From a virus (Duplodnaviria > Caudoviricetes), in the IMG/VR virus record IMGVR_UViG_3300037466_003849, positions 1 through 64,000 of that record: a stretch of 64,000 nucleotides of DNA; one strand, 5' to 3'. Positions 36,063 through 46,686 of the stretch are shown here, piece after piece. The stretch's first letter is position 1. Each line of letters opens with the position of its first letter. The notes below the pieces were generated by a model, which had not been told where the DNA came from, did no database searches, and saw only the letters and a list, made by a program, of their open reading frames with translations. The translations under genes and the position numbers were made by a program.

Positions 36063-36242
36063 TCAGTTCCCCTTCGTAGATGCCCGGCGCGCTGCCGCGG
36101 CGTGACGGCGCCAGTTGCCCATGCACCGGTTGCTCCATTCGAGCTGCGAGGCCCATCCGCACGAGCAGACGGCCTGAAACTTGCGACCCTCGGCGGTCTC
36201 GACAACCGCGAGGTTGGAGGAGTGAGTCGTGGTCTCGCTCAT
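36063..36242 (-). CDS. Small Zn-finger-like protein (59 aa)
   Basis: AVCSCGW...H; TGATG start. Confidence 0.6.
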   Translation of the reverse strand: MSETTTHSSNLAVVETAEGRKFQAVCSCGWASQLEWSNRCMGNWRRHAAAARRASTKGN

Positions 36243-37045
36243 CACTTCTCCTCGGTCGCCGCGAGCTCGCGATCGGCATCCCACTCGGCCTGTCGGCGCG
36301 TCTTCCAGATCTCCAGCGCCCGCGCCTGCGCCGCCTGCTTGGTCGGATGCTTGACGGCGTACTCGTCGTCGGTCACGCCGATGCCCTGGGACACCGTGAG
36401 CCCCCAGTACTGCTCGCTGCTGCCGGACTGCCTGCGCGAGATGGAGTAGGTCTCCTTGCGGCCGATGTAGTCGGCGCAGTGGGCGACGTAGTTGCCGTCG
36501 GACTTCTTGTAGAACCTCGGCGGCACCCATGCGTCGGCGACCTTGCTGATGTACAGGATCGAGCCGCTGGGGCTCGCCTCGACGGTGTAGCCCGCCTCCT
36601 TCAGCACCTTGGCGATCCGGGCGGCCTTCTTGGTGTTGACCTCCTCGATGTCGTCGGTGTCGACGCTCACCGAGATGCGGGTGGGGCCGGACTGGCTCAC
36701 CCGCAGGCCGGGCCGGGCGCGGTCGTGGGAGGTCTTGTACCCCAGCCGCCGCATGGCCAGCGCCATCGTGTTCACCGCCAGCAGGCCGGGGCGCATCCAC
36801 GGCTCGTGCTCGTCGGCCTTGCGCGGCCGTCCGGTCTGACGGTCGATCTTGGCGTAGGCCAGGATGTCGGCGCGCACGTAGATGTCGGTGCCCGAGGGGG
36901 AGGCGAGCTTCGGCGGGAAGTCTTCGGCCTTCTTCAGCACGTTCACCCGCTGACGCGAGCAGCCGAGGATCTCGGCGATATCGGCGACCCCGACGAGGTC
37001 GGCCGCGGGGGTGCCAGCGAGGGTGCTGGCGATCCACTCCGTCAT
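36242..37045 (-). CDS. HTH (AlpA/MerR-like) multidomain protein
   Basis: LVGVADIAEILGCSRQRV..L...DFPP..GRPR; RBS GAAAGGA. Confidence 0.75.
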   Translation of the reverse strand: MTEWIASTLAGTPAADLVGVADIAEILGCSRQRVNVLKKAEDFPPKLASPSGTDIYVRADILAYAKIDRQTGRPRKADEHEPWMRPGLLAVNTMALAMRRLGYKTSHDRARPGLRVSQSGPTRISVSVDTDDIEEVNTKKAARIAKVLKEAGYTVEASPSGSILYISKVADAWVPPRFYKKSDGNYVAHCADYIGRKETYSISRRQSGSSEQYWGLTVSQGIGVTDDEYAVKHPTKQAAQARALEIWKTRRQAEWDADRELAATEEK

Positions 37046-37083: not shown

Positions 37084-37114
37084 GAGCCGGGGTGCATAGG
37101 TCGCATCCCGGCTC
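37084..37114. promoter_or_regulatory. Hairpin with ATAGGTC loop
   Basis: GAGCCGGGGTGC-ATAGGTC-GCATCCCGGCTC, followed by TTTCT on the + strand. Confidence 0.6.
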
Positions 37115-37164: not shown

Positions 37165-37578
37165 TCAGTCGTCAACCCTTTTTGGAGCAGGCTCGTTGAG
37201 GATCTGGGCGACGCGCTGACGACTCAGGCCGACGAGCGCGGCAATGTCGTGAGCCTTGAGATTGTCCCGGCCGAGATCGTGGACGAACGCCTTCGTCGTG
37301 CTCTCGATTTCCTTCTCGAATTCCCGCAGGCGCCCACGTGCCCGCAGCAATGCGCGTGAGCGAGATTCGATGCGCTTGGTGTGCCTGAAATCGCCCATGG
37401 TCATGACGACTTCGAATTCCGAGGGCCGCAGATCCTTCTCCAGCATGATGAAGCTCTGCGCCGCCTCGACGACGCCCTCCAGCTTGGTGGCGTGAGTCTT
37501 CACACCCTCTCCGACCTCGGGTAACTCGATAGTCCACGATGTCCCGTCGTACCCGGACACGACAGCTGTAAATCGCAT
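37165..37578 (-). CDS. HicB-like antitoxin (RNase H-like fold plus C-terminal HTH), no adjacent toxin
   Basis: F.A......W.IE.PEV...THA.KL..V.E.A..FI; DIAALVGLSRQRVAQIL. Confidence 0.7.
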   Translation of the reverse strand: MRFTAVVSGYDGTSWTIELPEVGEGVKTHATKLEGVVEAAQSFIMLEKDLRPSEFEVVMTMGDFRHTKRIESRSRALLRARGRLREFEKEIESTTKAFVHDLGRDNLKAHDIAALVGLSRQRVAQILNEPAPKRVDD

Positions 37579-40925: not shown

Positions 40926-40990
40926 TTCGCGTCTGGGGATCTCCTCCGGCCGCACCGGCCCGACTGCGATCCGGCCGACGAAAGGACACC

Positions 40991-41326
40991 ATGGAGATCA
41001 ACACCGACGACGGCAGCAAGGGGCTCTGGCTGATGACCGGCCCTTCCGGCGACGACACCCCGGCCAAGATCGGCCTGCTGTTCGATTGGTGCCGCTATGA
41101 CAGTGACGCGCACGGCTGGGCCATCAGTGGCGGCACACCGCGCGGCGTCTTCGCCGTCGGCTGGATGCCGTGCCTCAGCGCGAGCTGCCCGCTACGTGGA
41201 ATGCCGAAGCCGCTGCACCATGCGATCGTCCTCGTCGGCAACCTCGTCGACAGCCTCCACGCCTGCGCCGACACCCTCGCCCTCGTGGCCCGCCGAGCCC
41301 GCGGCTTCTCGCGACTCTCGCGCTGA
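40991..41326 (+). CDS. Hypothetical protein
   Basis: RBS GAAAGGA; TGATG overlap with HNH gene. Confidence 0.6.
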   Translation: MEINTDDGSKGLWLMTGPSGDDTPAKIGLLFDWCRYDSDAHGWAISGGTPRGVFAVGWMPCLSASCPLRGMPKPLHHAIVLVGNLVDSLHACADTLALVARRARGFSRLSR

Positions 41327-41697
41327 TGGCCACGCGGGTACGCCGTCCGTGCACGCAGTGCGGCCAGCCGGTCGTCTCCGGCGGCAAGTGCGCCCGGCAC
41401 CTCGCGCTACACCACAAGCGCGTCGACCAGATCCGCGGTAACTCCTCGCAGCGCGGCTACGACAACGAGCACCGCACGCGCTTCCGTGCCGAGGTGCTGC
41501 GGCGGGACAACTACACCTGCCAGATCTGCTCCGGCTACGCCGACCGCGCCGACCATCACCCGCTCTCACGCAAGGAGCTGGTCGAGGCCAGGCTCGATCC
41601 CAACGATCCCGTCCACGGCCGGGCGCTGTGCGAGTACTGCCATAACCGGCACACCGCCAAGACGCAAGGCAAGGACAACTGGCGCAAGTCGCGATGA
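41326..41697 (+). CDS. HNH endonuclease (packaging-associated type)
   Basis: RGYD...R..VL.RD..TCQIC..ADH..P...GRALCEYCHNRHT. Confidence 0.92.
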   Translation: MATRVRRPCTQCGQPVVSGGKCARHLALHHKRVDQIRGNSSQRGYDNEHRTRFRAEVLRRDNYTCQICSGYADRADHHPLSRKELVEARLDPNDPVHGRALCEYCHNRHTAKTQGKDNWRKSR

Positions 41698-41844
41698 GAG
41701 CTCATCGGCGAGGGCCTCGGAGGGGAGGGGCTTCGCCGCGCCCGCGCGGCCGTTTCGGATCGGTTTCGCCGGGCGGTGGGAAAAAAATTTTTGGAGCACA
41801 ATCCTCGCTGGTCGGCAGGAGAAACCGTCGCTGGGAAACCCGCA

Positions 41845-41893
41845 GTACCCCCCGTGGGTATCTGAGACCCGGCTGGATACCCACCGGGGGTAC
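41845..41893. repeat. 18-bp inverted repeat near the presumed genome end
   Basis: GTACCCCCCGTGGGTATC-N13-GATACCCACCGGGGGTAC (one mismatch). Confidence 0.65.
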
Positions 41894-42029
41894 CAAGTGT
41901 TGACGATGTCAAGATCACGATTAAATATCTCCGCGTGTCGTAGCATTCGGGCGTGTCGTGCGTCCCGCATCGCCTCGGCTCGTTGGCGCTGTTCACGGCG
42001 CGTTTCCGTGCCCGAACGCACCGCAAGCC

Positions 42030-42330
42030 ATGTCGGCGCCGTCGGCGCGCCCGTCGGCGCCTTGTCGGCCGGATCGCTGGCGCGCCGTACAGGTCGGCTG
42101 TAGCGGTTGCTGTCGGCGCCGTCGGCCGGATCGCTGGCAGGCTGGCGCCGATCACGTCGGCCGGTCGCAAAGGGTCGGCCGGATCGCTGGCGCCGTCGCT
42201 GGCAGGCTCGAGCCGATGAGTCGGCCGGACATGCCGTGCGCCGTCGGCGCCAAGTCGGCGCCGTGCGGGACGCTCACCCAATCGGCCCGGTCGGCGCCGT
42301 TGCTGGCGCCCGGTCGGCCGGTCGAGTCTT
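42030..42330. repeat. Strand-polarised GTCGGC(GCC/CGG) simple-repeat tract
   Basis: More than 10 units; GTCGGCCGGATCGCTGGC at 42064, 42121, 42174. Confidence 0.75.
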
Positions 42331-42463
42331 AGGCACCGAGTGTGGCGCCCGTACGTGGTTGCGCGGTCCTAGATTCCGCGCTGTGAGGCTCGATATCCGA
42401 GCATGGTGCTTGCGATCGGTTCTCCTTCTGTCACGTGACGTAATGCTGTGTCGGCAAGATCGC

Positions 42464-42512
42464 CAGAAACACAACAAGCCCTACCGACATAGGCGCCGAT
42501 AGGGCTTGTTGT
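42464..42512 (-). terminator. Terminator of the leftward gene array
   Basis: ACAACAAGCCCTA...TAGGGCTTGTTGT 13-bp stem. Confidence 0.7.
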
Positions 42513-42528
42513 CTCGCTGTGCGCACCC

Positions 42529-42567
42529 ACGGCGCCGCGTGCGGATAGGTCCCGCGCGCGGCGCCGT
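42529..42567. repeat. Degenerate copy of array hairpin (16-bp stem, ATAGGTC loop)
   Basis: ACGGCGCCGCGTGCGG-ATAGGTC-CCGCGCGCGGCGCCGT. Confidence 0.75.
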
Positions 42568-42580
42568 CGGCGGCTCGGCA

Positions 42581-42832
42581 TCAGTACGTGTTGTCGTGCG
42601 TGAGGCCGCCGAGCCATTCGGGCACCCGCTTGCCCTGCCACATGATCAGCAATCGGCTCGGTATGCCAACCGTGCGGCTGTCGACGTATCGAACAATGCG
42701 CTTGTTGGTGCTGGCCTTGCGTCGGCGCAATTCCTTGCAAGCGTCAATGAAGGAAAGCGTTTGCGTTCCGCTGCTCCATTGTTCGGTCACGGGTGAGTAT
42801 TCCTGCGCGTAGAAAACGTCAATTTCTCGCAT
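42581..42832 (-). CDS. Array gene (83 aa), unknown function
   Basis: RBS GAGAGAGG; MREIDVFYAQEYS... Confidence 0.7.
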   Translation of the reverse strand: MREIDVFYAQEYSPVTEQWSSGTQTLSFIDACKELRRRKASTNKRIVRYVDSRTVGIPSRLLIMWQGKRVPEWLGGLTHDNTY

Positions 42833-42851
42833 GTAATTACCTCTCTCGGTT

Positions 42852-42915
42852 CGGCCCAGTTGCCGTGACACACCGCGCGGATAGGTCCCGCACGGTGTCT
42901 CGGAGACGACTAGGA
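42852..42915. repeat. 64-bp intergenic repeat, copy 1
   Basis: CGGCCCAGTTGCCGTGACACACCGCGCGGATAGGTCCCGCACGGTGTCTCGGAGACGACTAGGA. Confidence 0.95.
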
Positions 42916-43509
42916 CGGGTCCTGCAAACTCAGATTGCCGCGGTATGCAGCCTGCGACTCGCCCGCGCGGTAATCCGGGTTGTCATTGCCAGCGACGATG
43001 AATCCGATCATTCCGTTAGGCAGGAAGTTGTGCACTGTCCCGCGGACGTCTCCGCTCGCTGCGGAGTGCCAGACAACCCGATCACCTTGCTTGAACTCCG
43101 GGTAGCAACGCTCGCAATCGTCGTCGCTGCACTTCGGCGGTCGGTTGGCTGTCGGCGCGGCCCAGTAGCTCACGCTGTCGCCGTTGTTCCAGTTAACGCG
43201 ATACGAATACTCTTCGCCCGCGAGGACGGCGCGCCGGACTCCATAGAGCATGTCTCGGAATCCGTCCGACCCCTCGCGCTGCATCAACTCGACCATGCCG
43301 GTATCCCCGGCGCCGTCCTTGAGGTCAGCCTCAGATTCCGCGGACGCGTCGCACGCTTCGGCCGACGCCTCGCCATCGCGGACGATCAACTCAGCAAGCG
43401 CGCGCGCTACCTCGATAGCGTCGGCCTCACTGTCGACATGCAGCGCGGTCGGCGCCATGTCCTCGGGCAGGCATCCGGGCGTATTCGACGAGACAACCCA
43501 AACGGTCAT
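42910..43509 (-). CDS. Array gene (199 aa), acidic, with C..DC.RC and SH3-like C-terminus
   Basis: RBS GAAGGGA; its TAG stop lies inside repeat copy 1. Confidence 0.7.
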   Translation of the reverse strand: MTVWVVSSNTPGCLPEDMAPTALHVDSEADAIEVARALAELIVRDGEASAEACDASAESEADLKDGAGDTGMVELMQREGSDGFRDMLYGVRRAVLAGEEYSYRVNWNNGDSVSYWAAPTANRPPKCSDDDCERCYPEFKQGDRVVWHSAASGDVRGTVHNFLPNGMIGFIVAGNDNPDYRAGESQAAYRGNLSLQDPS

Positions 43510-43529
43510 GATTCGATCCCTTCTCAATC

Positions 43530-43593
43530 CGGCCTAGTTGCCGTGACACACCGCGCGGATAGGTCCCGCACGGTGTCTCGGAGACGACTAGGA
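43530..43593. repeat. 64-bp intergenic repeat, copy 2
   Basis: Same as copy 1 except one C>T. Confidence 0.95.
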
Positions 43594-43818
43594 CAGTGCG
43601 CCGTAGGACCAACTACCCAACGGCGCCGATTCGCACGGCAGCGGCGCCACTGGCGCCCCGTACGCGTCGGTTGTGTCGTCGGCCGGATAGCCGTACTCGC
43701 ACGGGTCGACATTGAACGGAACGTTGTACTCCGGTACGTCGGCCGACGCGGACGGCGCCGACAAGGCCAGCGCAGCGGCTGCGATAGCGAGGATGGTTCG
43801 AATTGCGTTGCGGGACAT
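43588..43818 (-). CDS. Array gene: secreted peptide (76 aa)
   Basis: Signal peptide ending ASA-D; two Cys; TAG stop inside repeat copy 2. Confidence 0.7.
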   Translation of the reverse strand: MSRNAIRTILAIAAAALALSAPSASADVPEYNVPFNVDPCEYGYPADDTTDAYGAPVAPLPCESAPLGSWSYGALS

Positions 43819-43845
43819 AGTGATTACTCCTGTCGGTAGGTTCGG

Positions 43846-44115
43846 TTAGACCGCGAGATAGAAGCGGGTGCGCCGGTAGACATTCCGGTACTCGTCGGCG
43901 CGCCCGTAGTCGATGATCAGCTCGGAGAAGTGGTCGCCGAACATGGCCGTTCGCGCCGCGCGCGGGTGCTCGACGGCGAACTGTTCGATGGCGCTTTTCA
44001 GTGCCTCATTTGCCACGCTGGGCAAGTCGTGCGAGCTCAACTCGCGCCGCTGCATTTCCGACGCGTCGGCACTCACTGTGAAGTCCTGGTCTATGCGGAC
44101 AACCTTGAAAGGCAT
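43846..44115 (-). CDS. Array gene (89 aa), unknown function
   Basis: Clean ORF in the operon. Confidence 0.65.
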   Translation of the reverse strand: MPFKVVRIDQDFTVSADASEMQRRELSSHDLPSVANEALKSAIEQFAVEHPRAARTAMFGDHFSELIIDYGRADEYRNVYRRTRFYLAV

Positions 44116-44145
44116 TGCGATCCTTCGCGTTTCGAGAATGGACGG

Positions 44146-44496
44146 TTAGACGCTGGCAGGCTCGACAATCGAGGCCCACCACGTGAACGCGTGCCGCGTA
44201 CCGGCATCACGGTCTCCGCAGTGCTCGCACTGCGACCGCGAGAACGTACGCGTTTCGCAATCGCAGTCGGCGCCGTCGGCGCACGGTTCGCCCATGTGGG
44301 CGCATTCGTCGTCGGTGAGGTGGCCGTGTCCAAGCGTCACGGCGTCGGCGCCAGCGTTGCGCATGTTGTTTTCGATGTGCGCCAGCCAATCGGCCACCTC
44401 ATCGGCCGACCAATCGGCCGGGACGTTGCCGTATTCGATGCGGAATAGGCACGGTTCGCAGCACCATCCACTACCGAGAGAGATTTGCGCGTTCAT
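44146..44496 (-). CDS. Array gene (116 aa), Cys-rich
   Basis: RBS GAAGGGA; WCCEPC, C..DCDC..FS...CEHCG...G.RH. Confidence 0.7.
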   Translation of the reverse strand: MNAQISLGSGWCCEPCLFRIEYGNVPADWSADEVADWLAHIENNMRNAGADAVTLGHGHLTDDECAHMGEPCADGADCDCETRTFSRSQCEHCGDRDAGTRHAFTWWASIVEPASV

Positions 44497-44514
44497 ATTC
44501 GATCCCTTCTGTGT

Positions 44515-44578
44515 CGGCCCAGTTGCCGTGACACACCGCGCGGATAGGTCCCGCACGGTGTCTCGGAGACGACTAGGA
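44515..44578. repeat. 64-bp intergenic repeat, copy 3
   Basis: Identical to copy 1. Confidence 0.95.
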
Positions 44579-44579
44579 C

Positions 44580-45179
44580 TCAGCGGGGAGCGAGTCGCAT
44601 GGTTCCGCCGTGCATGTGCACAAGCGGAACATGCGGCATGGTCATGCCCTCATACGGTGTGTGCAGGATGAGGGATACGTTTCCGTCCTCATCGGTGTGA
44701 GGCTCGAGCGTCATAGTGAAGCAACCGCGCGGCTCACCGACGCTGATCTGTACTTCGATCCGGTTTTCGCCGATCGTCACGCCTGCCCAGTTGACATAGT
44801 CGGCGGCGGACTTGTCGCGCGGCTCCGCCAGCGTGTAGTTGGTTTTCTCGCGAATGTCATCCTCCGACACCCACGCGTCGTCTTCTAGCTCAAGGTCGCG
44901 CCGGATGTCGTCAAAGTCGATTCCGTTGCACAACCGCGCGTCGTTTTCGTCGTGCGTCCAGCCATCAACAGTGTCGGAAATAGGCTGGCCGCAATGCTTG
45001 CAAACCTTCTCGTCGTCGCTGTTCGCGGTAACGGTCACGTCGATTGTGTCATCGTCGCCGAAGTGCTCGGAGTCGATTGCCTGGCCGTTAATTTCGATGC
45101 TGAACACAGCAGTACTCCCGTGGGAATTGGCGAATTTCTCGGCGCGCCAGATAGGCGCGTTGCGTGACCTAATGGCCAT
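44580..45179 (-). CDS. Array gene (199 aa), very acidic, with CKHC motif
   Basis: Stop immediately before repeat copy 3. Confidence 0.7.
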   Translation of the reverse strand: MAIRSRNAPIWRAEKFANSHGSTAVFSIEINGQAIDSEHFGDDDTIDVTVTANSDDEKVCKHCGQPISDTVDGWTHDENDARLCNGIDFDDIRRDLELEDDAWVSEDDIREKTNYTLAEPRDKSAADYVNWAGVTIGENRIEVQISVGEPRGCFTMTLEPHTDEDGNVSLILHTPYEGMTMPHVPLVHMHGGTMRLAPR

Positions 45180-45227
45180 GACATACCGCGCGCAATGTCG
45201 CGGTATCTCGGGAGCCGTTAGGGCAGG

Positions 45228-45956
45228 CTACGCGGACGCGTATTCGAAACGGATACGGAACGGCGCGCCGTCGAATTCGCGCGGCTGTCGGTCCTCGAAA
45301 GCGGAGACAAGATCAAGGTAAGCCTCGGCGTAGCGTTCGCCGAAAGTGTGTTCCCGCGCGGCATGTGCTTTGTTGAGTGCTGCCGCATTGTCCTCATCCC
45401 TCGCATTGAGCCACGCGCGGCGGTCGGTCGCAGTGCGCTTAGGCGCCGCTTTCACGATAGCGGGCATTACCTCCGAAGCCTCATCGGAAACCGCGTCGTA
45501 GTTGTCGCGGGCAGGCGCCTTGCCGCGCGCTACTTCCTTGGTCTGGCCGCTGGCAGTGACTTTCTCGATCACGTAGGTAGCGGTAAGGCCATCCAGGGCG
45601 CCAGCGAGCAAGTGGGGGTACTCGGCCGAGTCGTCGAATGAGTCTGCCCAATCGGCAATCCGGGCGGTCACGTCTGCATCGTTCGCGAGAGTGGCGCGCC
45701 GGTAAAGGCTGCGCATTCCGGCTGTGAAGTCCGACCATGTCATCGCGCCATCGCAGTAGCGCCGATCGAGTGCATCCAGTTCGTTGCGGAGCTCAGACTT
45801 GCCTGCCCACTGCTGGCCGCAGTATGTGCAGTCGAGCGGCTGGCCCGCGAAAACGGGCTCAGCTGCCGCGTAGAAGTCGACACAGTTGTTGCAGCGCTGA
45901 TCAATCGAGCCGTCATCTGCAATGCGCTGCACACCGATCATCTTGCGGTCCGTCAT
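45228..45956 (-). CDS. First array gene (242 aa), Zn-ribbon N-terminus
   Basis: RBS GGAGG; CNNC and CTYC motifs. Confidence 0.7.
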   Translation of the reverse strand: MTDRKMIGVQRIADDGSIDQRCNNCVDFYAAAEPVFAGQPLDCTYCGQQWAGKSELRNELDALDRRYCDGAMTWSDFTAGMRSLYRRATLANDADVTARIADWADSFDDSAEYPHLLAGALDGLTATYVIEKVTASGQTKEVARGKAPARDNYDAVSDEASEVMPAIVKAAPKRTATDRRAWLNARDEDNAAALNKAHAAREHTFGERYAEAYLDLVSAFEDRQPREFDGAPFRIRFEYASA

Positions 45957-46320
45957 GTCGTCGCCTCCCGTTCCGTCGCTTCGCACCGTGCGCCGCGATC
46001 GAGGCCAACAGTGCCCGTGACCAGGTGGAATGCGCAATCGGCCGGTAATTGCGTCCGGTGGTTTTGACGGCGTACGAAAACGGACCCGCCGGTTGGTTAC
46101 TCGATACCCCCTCGGAGTCAGCTACCCCCCGGCAACATCTCCACAGCGAGCGGCCGGCGACCGTTCTCCCCACAGTCCTCTCAAAAATGCTCGATTTTCG
46201 AAAGCCTTTTTGCGCCGGTCAGGGGCATGATTTTCGCACTCTCGCTATGGACGTGACCTGGGACGATGCCAGGTCGGCGACGGGGCGGCCGGAAGGGCCA
46301 GTCGAAAGGATTCTCCAGCA

Positions 46321-46686
46321 ATGATAGAGCCACCATTCGCGCTTTCGGAAGGCGCAGACGAACATTGGCGGCGGCACGTGGATCGCATCGTATCCGAGGG
46401 CCGCGCCAAGCTCATCAATACCGACGCGCTGGCGATCTACTGCGACATGCTGGCCCAGTATCAGCAGGCTACGCACCTGATCCACATGGAGGGCATGACC
46501 CGCGACGGCGACCGCGGCGGCATGACCAAGCACCCGGCCACGACCATCCTTACCTCGCTGCGCGCCGACCTGCGGCACTATGCCCGCATGATCCCGCTCT
46601 ACGACTCCGATGCCGAAATCGGCGACAGCCTCGACGGTTTCATCGCCGACGCCGAGAAGTGGGCCAACGAGCCCACGGCAGGCTGA
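46321..46686 (+). CDS. terS: Terminase small subunit (P27-like)
   Basis: D..AL..YC...AQY..A...I..EG.......KHPA motif; RBS GAAAGGA. Confidence 0.8.
   Translation: MIEPPFALSEGADEHWRRHVDRIVSEGRAKLINTDALAIYCDMLAQYQQATHLIHMEGMTRDGDRGGMTKHPATTILTSLRADLRHYARMIPLYDSDAEIGDSLDGFIADAEKWANEPTAG

What the first reader, a model, noticed from the sequence alone, without database searches (positions are those of the whole stretch)
42529..44578. Leftward gene array punctuated by a near-identical 64-bp structured repeat
Seen: three copies (42852, 43530, 44515; one base differs in copy 2) and a degenerate fourth (42529) each lie directly after a gene. In copies 1 and 2 the repeat supplies the upstream gene's TAG stop. 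Each full copy is followed on the coding strand by the next RBS/ATG, and GAAGGGATCGAAT precedes two of those starts. The repeat has an 11-bp stem with ATAGGTC loop, a GTCTC-C-GAGAC palindrome, and CC(C/T)AGT...ACTAGG ends, so it can fold as a long imperfect hairpin. Intervening units carry 1-2 unrelated small genes. Inference: a modular cassette platform, with the repeats acting as recombination boxes for gene gain and loss, or as mRNA processing/stability sites analogous to T7 early RNase III sites. Repeats upstream of small genes are known in some actinophages, but I do not recognise this element.
Basis: partly seen in the sequence, partly recalled or inferred. Interest (0 to 1): 0.88.

Follow-up and report, generated by a model that had tools for sequence, protein, structure and literature searches.

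The report
Stop-codon hairpin repeats between phage cassettes
A soil actinophage, probably of Nocardia, separates the small accessory genes of one leftward operon with near-identical 64-base hairpin-plus-ribosome-site modules; a related provirus has the same kind of module between completely different genes, so this is a new example of a known but still unexplained type of phage gene-cassette joint.

Summary
Three copies of a 64-65-nt element lie at 42852-42916, 43530-43594 and 44515-44579. Their 50-nt core is identical, and they occur nowhere else in the 72-kb phage genome. The element sits between genes of a leftward seven-gene operon wedged between the HNH/cos end and terS. Each copy places the upstream stop codon in or next to the base of a roughly 60-nt imperfect hairpin. 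About 20 nt with a Shine-Dalgarno site follow, then the next ATG. Two further hairpins (42526-42570 and 37084-37114) have different stems but the same GACCUAU loop.

A related provirus (TerL 87% identical) has five modules with the same end sequences and fold, at the same locus, between entirely unrelated genes. Cluster M mycobacteriophage Aziz has the same architecture, and it houses the only homologue of any gene in this array.

I found no promoter, no U-tract, no tyrosine recombinase and no target-site duplications.

My best reading (0.5) is an RNA-level intercistronic punctuation element that processes, stabilises or insulates the message and that also marks where cassettes are exchanged. 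T4-type PeSLs and the Cluster M/K intergenic repeats are the closest known analogues. I class it as a new variant of a known kind. Earlier notes of this scan describe the same kind of element on other soil-phage DNA.

The parts
44515..44579 (-). Repeat copy 3 (R3): hairpin module between gene A and gene B. The TGA of A (44580-44582) abuts it.
43530..43594 (-). Repeat copy 2 (R2): hairpin module between gene D and gene E. It supplies D's TAG stop (43588-43590). Its one base difference (43534) keeps the pair (U.G to U-A).
42852..42916 (-). Repeat copy 1 (R1): hairpin module between gene E and gene F. It supplies E's TAG stop (42910-42912).
42526..42570 (-). R0: stand-alone hairpin after the last gene (F). 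It has a different 16-18-bp stem, the same GGGACCUAUCC apex, and lacks the CCUAG/CUAGG lower stem.
37084..37114 (-). H37: fifth hairpin with the GACCUAU loop and a third stem sequence. It lies between the HicB-like gene (37165-37578) and gene 36242-37045 in another leftward operon.
42464..42519 (-). Strong 18-21-bp hairpin that closes the array, probably the operon terminator. Its loop is different.
   Evidence: (I12)
44497..44509 (-). Leader motif GAAGGGATCGAAT (Shine-Dalgarno region) directly before the ATG of gene B.
43511..43523 (-). Leader motif GAAGGGATCGAAT, one base before the ATG of gene E. A looser copy, GAAGGATCGCA, precedes gene C.
45228..45956 (-). Gene G (242 aa), first gene of the array. 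No known family.
44580..45179 (-). Gene A (199 aa). Only weak zinc-ribbon hints; no known family.
44146..44496 (-). Gene B (116 aa), Cys-rich, phrog_3034 (function unknown).
43846..44115 (-). Gene C (89 aa), phrog_23229 (function unknown).
43588..43818 (-). Gene D (76 aa), with an N-terminus that looks like a signal peptide.
   Evidence: read from the sequence
42910..43509 (-). Gene E (199 aa), bounded by two identical repeats. An ORFan: no relative among 5.8 billion proteins.
42581..42832 (-). Gene F (83 aa), phrog_34673. Its only homologues (45% identity) lie in the repeat-punctuated array of Cluster M2 mycobacteriophages.
46042..46228 (-). Non-coding leader/promoter region of the array, conserved with provirus L067. 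The variable region starts just downstream of it.
45183..45206 (-). Small unrelated 8-bp hairpin at the G-A junction, which has no repeat copy.
   Evidence: read from the sequence

Best explanation
The repeat is the core of an intercistronic module of about 85 nt on one polycistronic leftward mRNA. That mRNA carries seven accessory genes that lie between the cos/HNH end and terS of a 72-kb siphophage, probably of Nocardia.

Module layout. The upstream stop codon sits in or abuts the base of a two-storey imperfect hairpin of about 60 nt. The hairpin has a 6-bp lower stem (CCUAGU/ACURGG), a 3-bp middle helix, internal loops and a 12-bp apical stem. Its loop is GACCUAU, or ACCUA closed by a G.U pair. 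About 20 nt with a purine-rich Shine-Dalgarno site follow, then the next AUG.

Proposed action (inferred). The module acts in cis as RNA. Once the terminating ribosome has left, the hairpin forms. It then serves either as a double-strand processing site, as the RNase III sites do between T7 early genes, or as a block to 3' exonucleases. Either way the long message becomes individually stable cistrons, and each downstream start is kept free of whatever lies upstream.

Second role (inferred from comparison). Because every cassette carries the same joint, the joints are also the places where homologous recombination adds, removes and swaps cassettes between related phages.

Shown: the repeat, its fold, its position relative to stops and starts, its restriction to the array, a related module family around unrelated genes in a relative, and the absence of a promoter and of a U-tract.

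Inferred: RNA cleavage or protection, and recombination at the joints.
For: 1. Position is exact and repeated. The stop codon lies in or abuts the lower stem and the ATG follows about 20 nt after the hairpin, in all three copies.

2. Structure is kept while sequence changes. R0 and H37 have wholly different stems. The five L067 modules have four or five different apical stems, with U-A/C-G and G.U exchanges, yet the same two-storey fold.

3. The only difference among copies 1-3 converts U.G to U-A.

4. The sense strand folds better than the antisense strand in 6 of 8 hairpins of this phage and L067, and in 6 of 6 of Aziz. That is 12 of 14, one-sided binomial about 0.006 by my own arithmetic, with the grouping chosen afterwards.

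5. There is no sigma-70-type promoter and no TANNNT hexamer in the module, so downstream genes depend on read-through. There is no U-tract, so this is not a classical intrinsic terminator (sequence).

6. The family is confined to the array in both phages.

7. Cassette pattern. The flanks are syntenic at 70-78% nt identity, no array gene is shared, and the array genes have lower GC3 than core genes.

8. The same architecture occurs in the Cluster M2 phage Aziz. The literature reports gene insertions there 'with associated copies of CR3' (PMC7953290). T4 PeSLs are shown to mediate shuffling (PMC2839356).
Against: No RNA data exist for this phage, so no cut or 3' end has been seen.

If host RNase III or exonucleases were the only readers, the invariant GACCUAU loop and the sequence-conserved lower stem would not be needed. 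The element would also be expected in other operons.

The sense-strand advantage is small for this phage and L067 (mean -1.9 kcal/mol), and H37 and L067-e go the other way.

Perfect identity of three 64-nt direct repeats 0.7-1 kb apart should make the array prone to deletion. That argues for recent spread or gene conversion rather than long-held RNA function.

Only one close relative could be compared.
Confidence: 0.5

Rival explanations
1. The repeat is mainly a DNA-level cassette joint. Patches of shared sequence at gene boundaries let homologous recombination delete, duplicate and exchange cassettes between co-infecting relatives, as shown for T4-type PeSLs. On this reading the hairpin is secondary (a terminator or insulator) or incidental.
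For: - Three copies are 100% identical over 59-64 nt although the genes between them are unrelated, while the copies in the relative are only 68-82% alike. This suggests recent spread or gene conversion.
- The locus is hypervariable between conserved flanks.
- The array genes have atypical GC3.
- The family is restricted to the array.
- L067 has a 12-codon stub ORF after module c that looks like a deletion scar.
- Precedents exist: PMC2839356, PMC4122927; the Corndog gene 14 flanked by a repeat (PMC4351075); Cluster M insertions with CR3 (PMC7953290).
Against: The fold is kept through complete sequence turnover of the stems. That is not needed for homologous recombination and actually removes homology.

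This phage and L067 share only about 10-12 nt at each end of the module, too little for homologous exchange between them.

No RecT, ERF or YqaJ recombinase was found in the phage.

No rearranged form appeared in two metagenomes, though the contigs break at the repeats, so this is uninformative.
Confidence: 0.2
2. The hairpins are binding sites for a trans-acting factor, phage- or host-encoded, that reads the GACCUAU loop. The factor could be a translational repressor, an antiterminator or an endoribonuclease, and it would co-regulate the two leftward operons.
For: GACCTAT occurs six times in the genome. Five of these are loops of minus-strand intergenic hairpins with three unrelated stem sequences, and the wider apex GGGACCUAUCC is identical in R0 and R1-R3. 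No permutation of the heptamer behaves this way. R0 and H37 work without the lower stem, so the apical hairpin looks like a unit of its own.
Against: The five modules of the close relative have varied loops (AUGG, UUCG, AGC, AUU, CACGU), so loop identity is not needed for the family.

R0 has no downstream gene to regulate.

No RNA-binding protein candidate was identified; the genes searched in and around the two operons are of unknown function or not RNA-related.

The loop could be shared by descent, since only three independent hairpin lineages are involved.
Confidence: 0.15
3. The copies are plain recent duplications of one intergenic leader or terminator, carried along when genes were inserted. 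They have no function beyond an ordinary ribosome-binding site and an ordinary hairpin.
For: There are only three copies, they are near-identical, and they are confined to 2 kb. Other intergenic hairpins with other loops are common in this genome.
Against: A relative with 87% TerL identity keeps five diverged members with the same ends, fold and placement around other genes. This implies long-term retention. The stop-in-stem geometry recurs in Cluster M. The loop is conserved across different stems.
Confidence: 0.08
4. It is an integron-like system: the hairpins are attC-type sites, folded as single-stranded DNA and recombined by a dedicated site-specific recombinase.
For: The array consists of promoterless, co-oriented cassettes, each followed by an imperfect hairpin with conserved ends and a variable centre. 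An earlier scan note reports attC-like arrays next to Xer-like recombinases in other phages (not checked here).
Against: No PF00589 tyrosine recombinase is present anywhere in the complete genome, and all 14 control genomes gave a hit in that search. The ends are CCTAGY/RCTAGG, not RYYYAAC/GTTRRRY. The neighbours are HNH and terS. The sense-strand bias fits RNA.
Confidence: 0.03

Closest known systems
Cluster M mycobacteriophage conserved repeats CR3/CR4 with upstream stem-loops (Pope et al. 2014, J Virol 88:2461, not held here; Estes/Aziz note PMC7953290)
   Same: Both sit in arrays of small leftward genes of unknown function. Every gap in Aziz holds a 55-60-nt imperfect hairpin whose base includes the upstream stop codon, then a conserved leader with the Shine-Dalgarno site, then the ATG. 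Gene insertions there travel with a repeat copy (PMC7953290). Gene F of this array has its only homologues in that Aziz array. Cluster M also has a leftward gene block left of the terminase.
   Different: There is no sequence similarity between the elements: the Aziz leader is CACACGGAGAAGGGA, against GAAGGGATCGAAT here. In Cluster M the short leader is the conserved part and the stems vary. Here the whole 64-nt hairpin is repeated identically and the loop is invariant. The host genus differs, and so does the phage lineage (portal 44% to Cluster E).
PeSLs (promoter-early stem-loops) of T4-type phages (Arbiol et al. 2010, PMC2839356; Comeau et al. 2014, PMC4122927)
   Same: Both are composite intergenic modules running from the upstream stop codon through a stem-loop to the Shine-Dalgarno site and start codon. 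Both are concentrated in hyperplastic regions full of ORFans. In both, related phages differ by whole cassettes bounded by the modules.
   Different: PeSLs contain a strong sigma-70 promoter and an AT-rich tract, and their stem-loop is a tested terminator. This module has no promoter-like hexamers and no U-tract. PeSL-mediated mini-circles were shown by experiment; nothing of that sort is shown here.
RNase III processing sites between the early genes of coliphage T7 (R0.3, R0.5, R1, R1.1, R1.3; from my own knowledge of the T7 literature)
   Same: Both are intercistronic, similar to each other, and about 50-60 nt long. Both form a two-storey hairpin of about 20-25 bp interrupted by internal loops, lie just upstream of the next ribosome-binding site, and belong to one long promoter-distal message.
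   Different: Cleavage is untested here. T7 sites do not carry the stop codon in the stem. RNase III does not read loops, so it cannot explain the invariant GACCUAU.
Start-associated sequences (SAS) and extended SAS of Cluster K mycobacteriophages and Cluster EF Microbacterium phages (PMC3203893, PMC7302621)
   Same: Both have a well-conserved motif at the ribosome-binding site of a subset of non-structural genes, preceded in about half the cases by an inverted repeat in unusually long gaps. The function of the SAS/ESAS elements is unknown.
   Different: The SAS is a 13-mer (GGGATAGGAGCCC) present 11-19 times per genome. Here the leader motif occurs only 2-3 times. For ESAS the authors found little support for an RNA hairpin, whereas here hairpin formation is kept through stem turnover.
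Integron attC sites
   Same: Both show co-oriented promoterless cassettes, each followed by an imperfect hairpin with conserved ends and a variable centre.
   Different: There is no integrase and no attC core sequences, and the element has a sense-RNA bias.

Membership tests
T4-type PeSL | Sigma-70-type early promoter inside the module | tested here: not met
   The promoter scan of 41600-46500 found one site only, inside gene F, at the level expected from shuffles. The repeat and its leader contain no TANNNT hexamer (read).
T4-type PeSL | Stem-loop between the upstream stop codon and the downstream Shine-Dalgarno site and start | tested here: met
T4-type PeSL | Concentrated in a hyperplastic region where relatives differ by whole cassettes at the modules | tested here: met
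   One relative only: flanks align at 70-78% nt identity and no array protein is shared. The family is confined to the array.
T4-type PeSL | Recombination between modules gives deletions and mini-circles | not testable with these tools
   Logan contigs of the two runs break at the repeats.
T7-type RNase III processing site | Intercistronic hairpin of about two helical turns with internal loops | tested here: met
   24-26 base pairs in three helices, in each of the three copies.
T7-type RNase III processing site | Cleavage by RNase III in vivo or in vitro | not testable with these tools
   No RNA run holds the phage. The phage encodes no RNase III of its own.
Cluster M CR3/CR4 plus stem-loop | Conserved short leader repeat just upstream of start codons of small genes in one array | tested here: inconclusive
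   GAAGGGATCGAAT occurs at two starts and a looser copy at a third. This is far fewer than in Cluster M, and the sequence differs from the Aziz leader.
Cluster M CR3/CR4 plus stem-loop | Stem-loop immediately upstream of the leader, at the end of the preceding gene | tested here: met
Cluster K SAS/ESAS | 13-bp motif GGGATAGGAGCCC 3-8 bp from start codons, in many copies | tested here: not met
   No such repeated k-mer appears in the genome. The definition is from PMC3203893.
Integron (attC array) | IntI-type tyrosine recombinase | tested here: not met
   PF00589 is absent from the complete genome, while the same search hit all 14 control genomes.
Integron (attC array) | Core sites RYYYAAC ... 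GTTRRRY at the ends of the hairpin | tested here: not met
   The ends read GTCCTAGYCG ... GGCRACTRGGCC.
Intrinsic (Rho-independent) terminator | GC-rich hairpin followed by a U-tract | tested here: not met
   No terminator-like site falls at the repeats. The hairpin is followed by GGCCGA..., not by U.
MITE / REP-type mobile or dispersed repeat | Target-site duplications, and copies dispersed in the host or phage genome | tested here: not met
   The flanks of the three copies share no duplication. Scans with the 15-mer and 19-mer loop cores over IMG/VR and 185,579 species genomes gave only single chance hits.

The most novel reading that the evidence does not exclude
Actinophages of this lineage may run a dedicated cassette-exchange system without an integron-type integrase. 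In that case the sequence-conserved hairpin ends (GTCCTAGYCG ... GGCRACTAGGCC) would be joints recognised by a specific nuclease or recombinase, perhaps acting on folded single strands. These ends hold 4 of the only 19 CTAG sites in a genome where about 223 are expected. The phage-specific GACCUAU apex would be a second, separately read signal.
Probability: 0.08. Interest if true: 0.85.

Novelty: new variant of a known kind. Interest (0 to 1): 0.45.

Why it matters
Repeated intergenic motifs have been described in several actinophage clusters (K, M, O, EC, EF, EG) for more than ten years, and no function has been shown for any of them.

This case adds three things that sharpen the question. 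The stop codon is built into the hairpin base. The fold and end sequences are kept between two phages whose cassettes are entirely different. A loop is held constant across three unrelated stems.

The relative is a provirus in a cultured isolate. RNA end mapping and hairpin mutagenesis are therefore feasible there, and could decide between RNA processing, loop-specific regulation and recombination. If the joints do drive cassette exchange, they help explain how phages turn over ORFan accessory genes. They would also offer a natural plug-in expression adaptor for actinobacterial phage engineering.

Tried and rejected
- Loop-core scans. GCGGGACCTATCCGC over IMG/VR gave 21 single chance hits. GYGCGGGACCTATCCGCRC over 185,579 species genomes gave 40 single hits in unrelated phyla. 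There is thus no sign of a host-borne repeat family.
- End-pattern scan of metagenome contigs gave 8 hits, mostly without a hairpin. Only L088/L093 fold alike, and I did not follow them.
- The end-pattern scan of IMG/VR found L071, L073 and L079 with hairpins and conserved leaders. In L079 the antisense strand folds better in 4 of 4 hairpins, and the hits were selected by the pattern itself. I therefore do not count them as family members.
- blastn of the 2.8-kb region and of single elements against 50,697 phage genomes gave nothing real.
- Rfam gave no family.
- The search for related loci with terS and with gene E gave nothing.
- Blind genome-search searches were run at order level (401 genomes, twice) and over one genus (147 genomes). 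They found only TerL relatives at about 50% identity, with no such repeats upstream of terL.
- Sequencing runs: no RNA holder is listed. The two DNA runs hold identical sequence, and their contigs break at the repeats, so gene order variants cannot be seen.
- The protein atlas for genes A and G gave only sub-threshold hits. Gene E is an ORFan.
- RecT, ERF, YqaJ and RNase III families are absent from the phage.
- Reading the hairpin as a promoter on either strand was rejected: there is no acceptable -10 hexamer.
- A terminase-binding (cosB) role was rejected, because the copies are 0.7-1 kb apart and sit exactly at gene boundaries.
- A CRISPR-repeat mimic was rejected, because the stems differ while the loop is kept.
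Full report
**What the window is.** The window is the first 64 kb of a 72,121-bp IMG/VR virus record that CheckV rates as complete. Its GC content is 66%.
- The portal is 44-45% identical to that of Cluster E mycobacteriophages.
- The P27-family small terminase is 71-72% identical to proteins of Nocardia terpenica, so the host is probably a Nocardia or a close relative.
- The same sequence occurs in one rhizosphere and one soil metagenome from different studies.

**The observation.** Three copies of a 64-65-nt element lie at 42852-42916, 43530-43594 and 44515-44579.
- A 50-nt core is identical in all three, with none expected by chance.
- The core is found nowhere else in the genome.
- The genes here run leftward, so the '-' strand is the coding strand.

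I place seven genes in one co-oriented block:

| Gene | Coordinates |
|---|---|
| G | 45228-45956 |
| A | 44580-45179 |
| B | 44146-44496 |
| C | 43846-44115 |
| D | 43588-43818 |
| E | 42910-43509 |
| F | 42581-42832 |

- The repeats sit at the A/B, D/E and E/F junctions.
- The TAG stops of D and E lie inside the repeat, and the TGA of A abuts it.
- About 20 nt after each hairpin comes the next ATG. In two cases it is preceded by GAAGGGATCGAAT, and a looser copy precedes gene C.
- After F comes a hairpin (R0, 42526-42570) that shares only the 15-nt apex, followed by a strong closing hairpin at 42464-42519.

**Structure.** As RNA, each copy folds into a two-storey hairpin. It has a 6-bp lower stem (CCUAGU/ACURGG), a 3-bp middle helix, internal loops, and a 12-bp apical stem. 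The loop is ACCUA closed by G.U, which is GACCUAU if that pair is counted as open.
- The one base that differs in copy 2 changes U.G to U-A in the lower stem.
- R0 keeps GGGACCUAUCC on a different stem.
- A fifth hairpin at 37084-37114 lies between a HicB-like gene and the next gene of another leftward operon. It has the GACCUAU loop on a third stem.
- GACCTAT occurs six times in the genome, and five of these are such loops. No permutation of the heptamer behaves this way.

**Context.** The array fills most of a 4.6-kb island between an HNH endonuclease gene (41170-41697) and terS (46321-46686). In cos phages of this type these two genes are usually neighbours across the genome ends.
- Between HNH and the array lies about 770 bp of non-coding DNA with its own direct repeats (families D5/D6).
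- None of the seven proteins has a known function.
- E has no relative at all among 5.8 billion proteins.
- GC3 of the array genes is 0.72-0.83, against 0.84-0.91 in packaging and structural genes.

**The relative.** A TerL search of IMG/VR found a provirus from a cultured isolate (L067, TerL 87% identical).
- Its flanks align with this phage on both sides of the island at 70-78% nucleotide identity. The alignment includes a roughly 190-nt non-coding leader at the head of the array.
- The interval between the flanks does not align.
- That interval is again a leftward array, of about ten genes, one of them a DnaN-like sliding clamp.
- No protein of this phage's array has a homologue there.
- Yet the L067 array is punctuated by five related elements that are 68-82% alike. 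They have the same ends as here (GTCCTAGYCG ... GGCRACTAGGCC), the same two-storey fold and the same placement: the stop is inside the lower stem in at least two, and the ATG follows 20-35 nt later.
- Their apical stems and loops differ from this phage's and from each other, with U-A/C-G and G.U exchanges.
- As here, the family occurs only in the array.
- Six more distant prophages (TerL about 50% identical) have no such repeats upstream of terL.

**Known analogues.** Gene F has homologues only in Cluster M2 mycobacteriophages. In Aziz the homologue sits in an array of small leftward genes.
- Every gap in that array holds a 55-60-nt imperfect hairpin whose base includes the stop codon (UAG or UGA). 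The conserved leader CACACGGAGAAGGGA follows, then the ATG.
- These are the published CR3/CR4 repeats 'including stem-loop sequences upstream'. [quoted passage not shown]
- Cluster K and EF phages have start-associated sequences with an extended inverted repeat (PMC3203893, PMC7302621).
- Cluster O has 17-bp repeats that flank an inserted gene (PMC4351075).
- T4-type phages have PeSLs, modules of stop / promoter / stem-loop / SD / start in hyperplastic regions, which were shown by experiment to mediate cassette shuffling (PMC2839356, PMC4122927).
- No function has been shown for any of the actinophage repeats in the papers I could read.

**What it is not.**
- Not a promoter. One promoter-like site in 4.9 kb is the number expected by chance, and it is not in a repeat. 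The module has no TANNNT hexamer.
- Not a classical intrinsic terminator, because there is no U-tract.
- Not an integron. PF00589 is absent from the complete genome although the search hit all 14 control genomes, and the ends do not resemble attC cores.
- Not a MITE or REP. There are no target-site duplications, and no copies turned up in IMG/VR or in one genome of each of 185,579 species.
- Not in Rfam.
- Not present in 50,697 deposited phage genomes.

**RNA or DNA?** I compared the folding energy of the sense and antisense strands of each hairpin.
- The sense strand folds better in 6 of 8 independent hairpins of this phage and L067, with a mean advantage of 1.9 kcal/mol.
- It folds better in 6 of 6 hairpins of Aziz, with a mean advantage of 7.5 kcal/mol.
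- Together that is 12 of 14, about p = 0.006 one-sided by my own arithmetic, with the grouping chosen afterwards. It favours a role as sense RNA for this class of element.
- In this phage alone the support is modest.
- A metagenomic phage (L079) that I found through the end pattern shows the opposite bias, so I do not count it as related.

**Most likely mechanism.** I read the module as an RNA punctuation mark on one long message. The array has a single conserved leader region and no internal promoters. Each joint has about two helical turns of imperfect duplex placed just before the next ribosome-binding site, which is the layout of the T7 early RNase III sites.
- A double-strand cut, or simply a block to 3' exonucleases, would leave each cistron with a protective 3' hairpin. 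It would also leave each downstream start free of upstream structure.
- Having the stop codon in the stem means the hairpin can only form after the last ribosome has left.
- These steps are inferred; none is shown.

The restriction of the family to a hypervariable locus, the complete replacement of cassettes in the relative, and the perfect identity of the three copies here point to a second, evolutionary role. The joints are where cassettes are gained, lost and exchanged, as with PeSLs. The invariant GACCUAU apex is not explained by either role, and it leaves room for a loop-specific factor.

**What could not be done.** No RNA run holds the phage. The metagenome contigs break at the repeats, so rearranged forms cannot be seen.

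**Earlier notes of this scan.** The notes describe stop-codon-anchored hairpin repeats between small genes in several other soil phages, and read them in the same way. They are unchecked AI notes and I give them no weight as evidence. They do show that the scan has met this kind of element before on other DNA.

**Verdict.** This is a new sequence family, and a new variant (stop-in-stem, identical 64-mers, invariant loop) of a known but functionally unexplained class of phage intergenic repeats.

Noticed in passing
window 42064-42198 (and 40966-40979 on the other strand): Three direct copies of GTCGGCCGGATCGCTGGCGC, spaced 57 and 53 bp apart, lie in the roughly 770-bp non-coding gap between the HNH gene and the array. 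One inverted 14-mer copy lies upstream. They may be terminase-binding (cosB-like) sites at the genome end.
   Followed up: no
window 46042-46228; L067 7480-7671: The non-coding leader between the array and terS has conserved blocks, for example TGGGGAGAACGGTC and GGACGCAATTAC, shared with the provirus although the genes downstream differ. This is likely the divergent promoter/operator region, or a structured 5' leader.
   Followed up: partly
window 37084-37114: A hairpin with the same GACCUAU loop lies between a HicB-like/HTH gene (phrog_8245) and a 267-aa gene with a weak excisionase-like match. It links the accessory array to a second leftward operon.
   Followed up: partly
whole genome (G000): CTAG is strongly avoided: 19 sites against about 223 expected from base composition. 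Four of the 19 sit in the three repeats.
   Followed up: partly
L067 5780-6895 (-): The array of the related provirus carries a DnaN-like sliding-clamp gene (PF02767, PF02768) among ORFans. Its GC3 is 0.58-0.69, against 0.85 in terL.
   Followed up: partly
L067 3975-3915 (-): A 12-codon stub ORF follows module c, then about 90 nt of non-coding DNA before the next gene. It looks like the scar of a deleted cassette.
   Followed up: no
L067 6925-6940 and 5205-5215 (-): GACCTAT occurs twice on the coding strand of the relative's array. One copy is the loop of a 5-bp hairpin upstream of the clamp gene, and the other overlaps a start codon (AGACCUAUG). Whether this relates to the invariant loop of this phage is unclear.
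   Followed up: partly
window 43588-43818 (-): Gene D encodes a 76-aa protein with a hydrophobic, Ala-rich N-terminus like a signal peptide, followed by two Cys. It may be a secreted or envelope protein expressed from the array.
   Followed up: no
L079 1650-2560 (+): An unrelated metagenomic phage (GC 57%) has four small genes separated by two alternating types of hairpin element. Each is followed by the leader AACCCGGAAAGGAAA and an ATG. One type has ends like those here (CCTAGCCGC ... GGCGACTGTGCC), but its antisense strand folds better.
   Followed up: partly
window 42867-42907 and equivalents: The small palindrome GTCTC-C-GAGAC on the 5' side of the hairpin could form a competing 4-bp mini-hairpin. 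It is not conserved in the relative's modules, so it is probably incidental.
   Followed up: no
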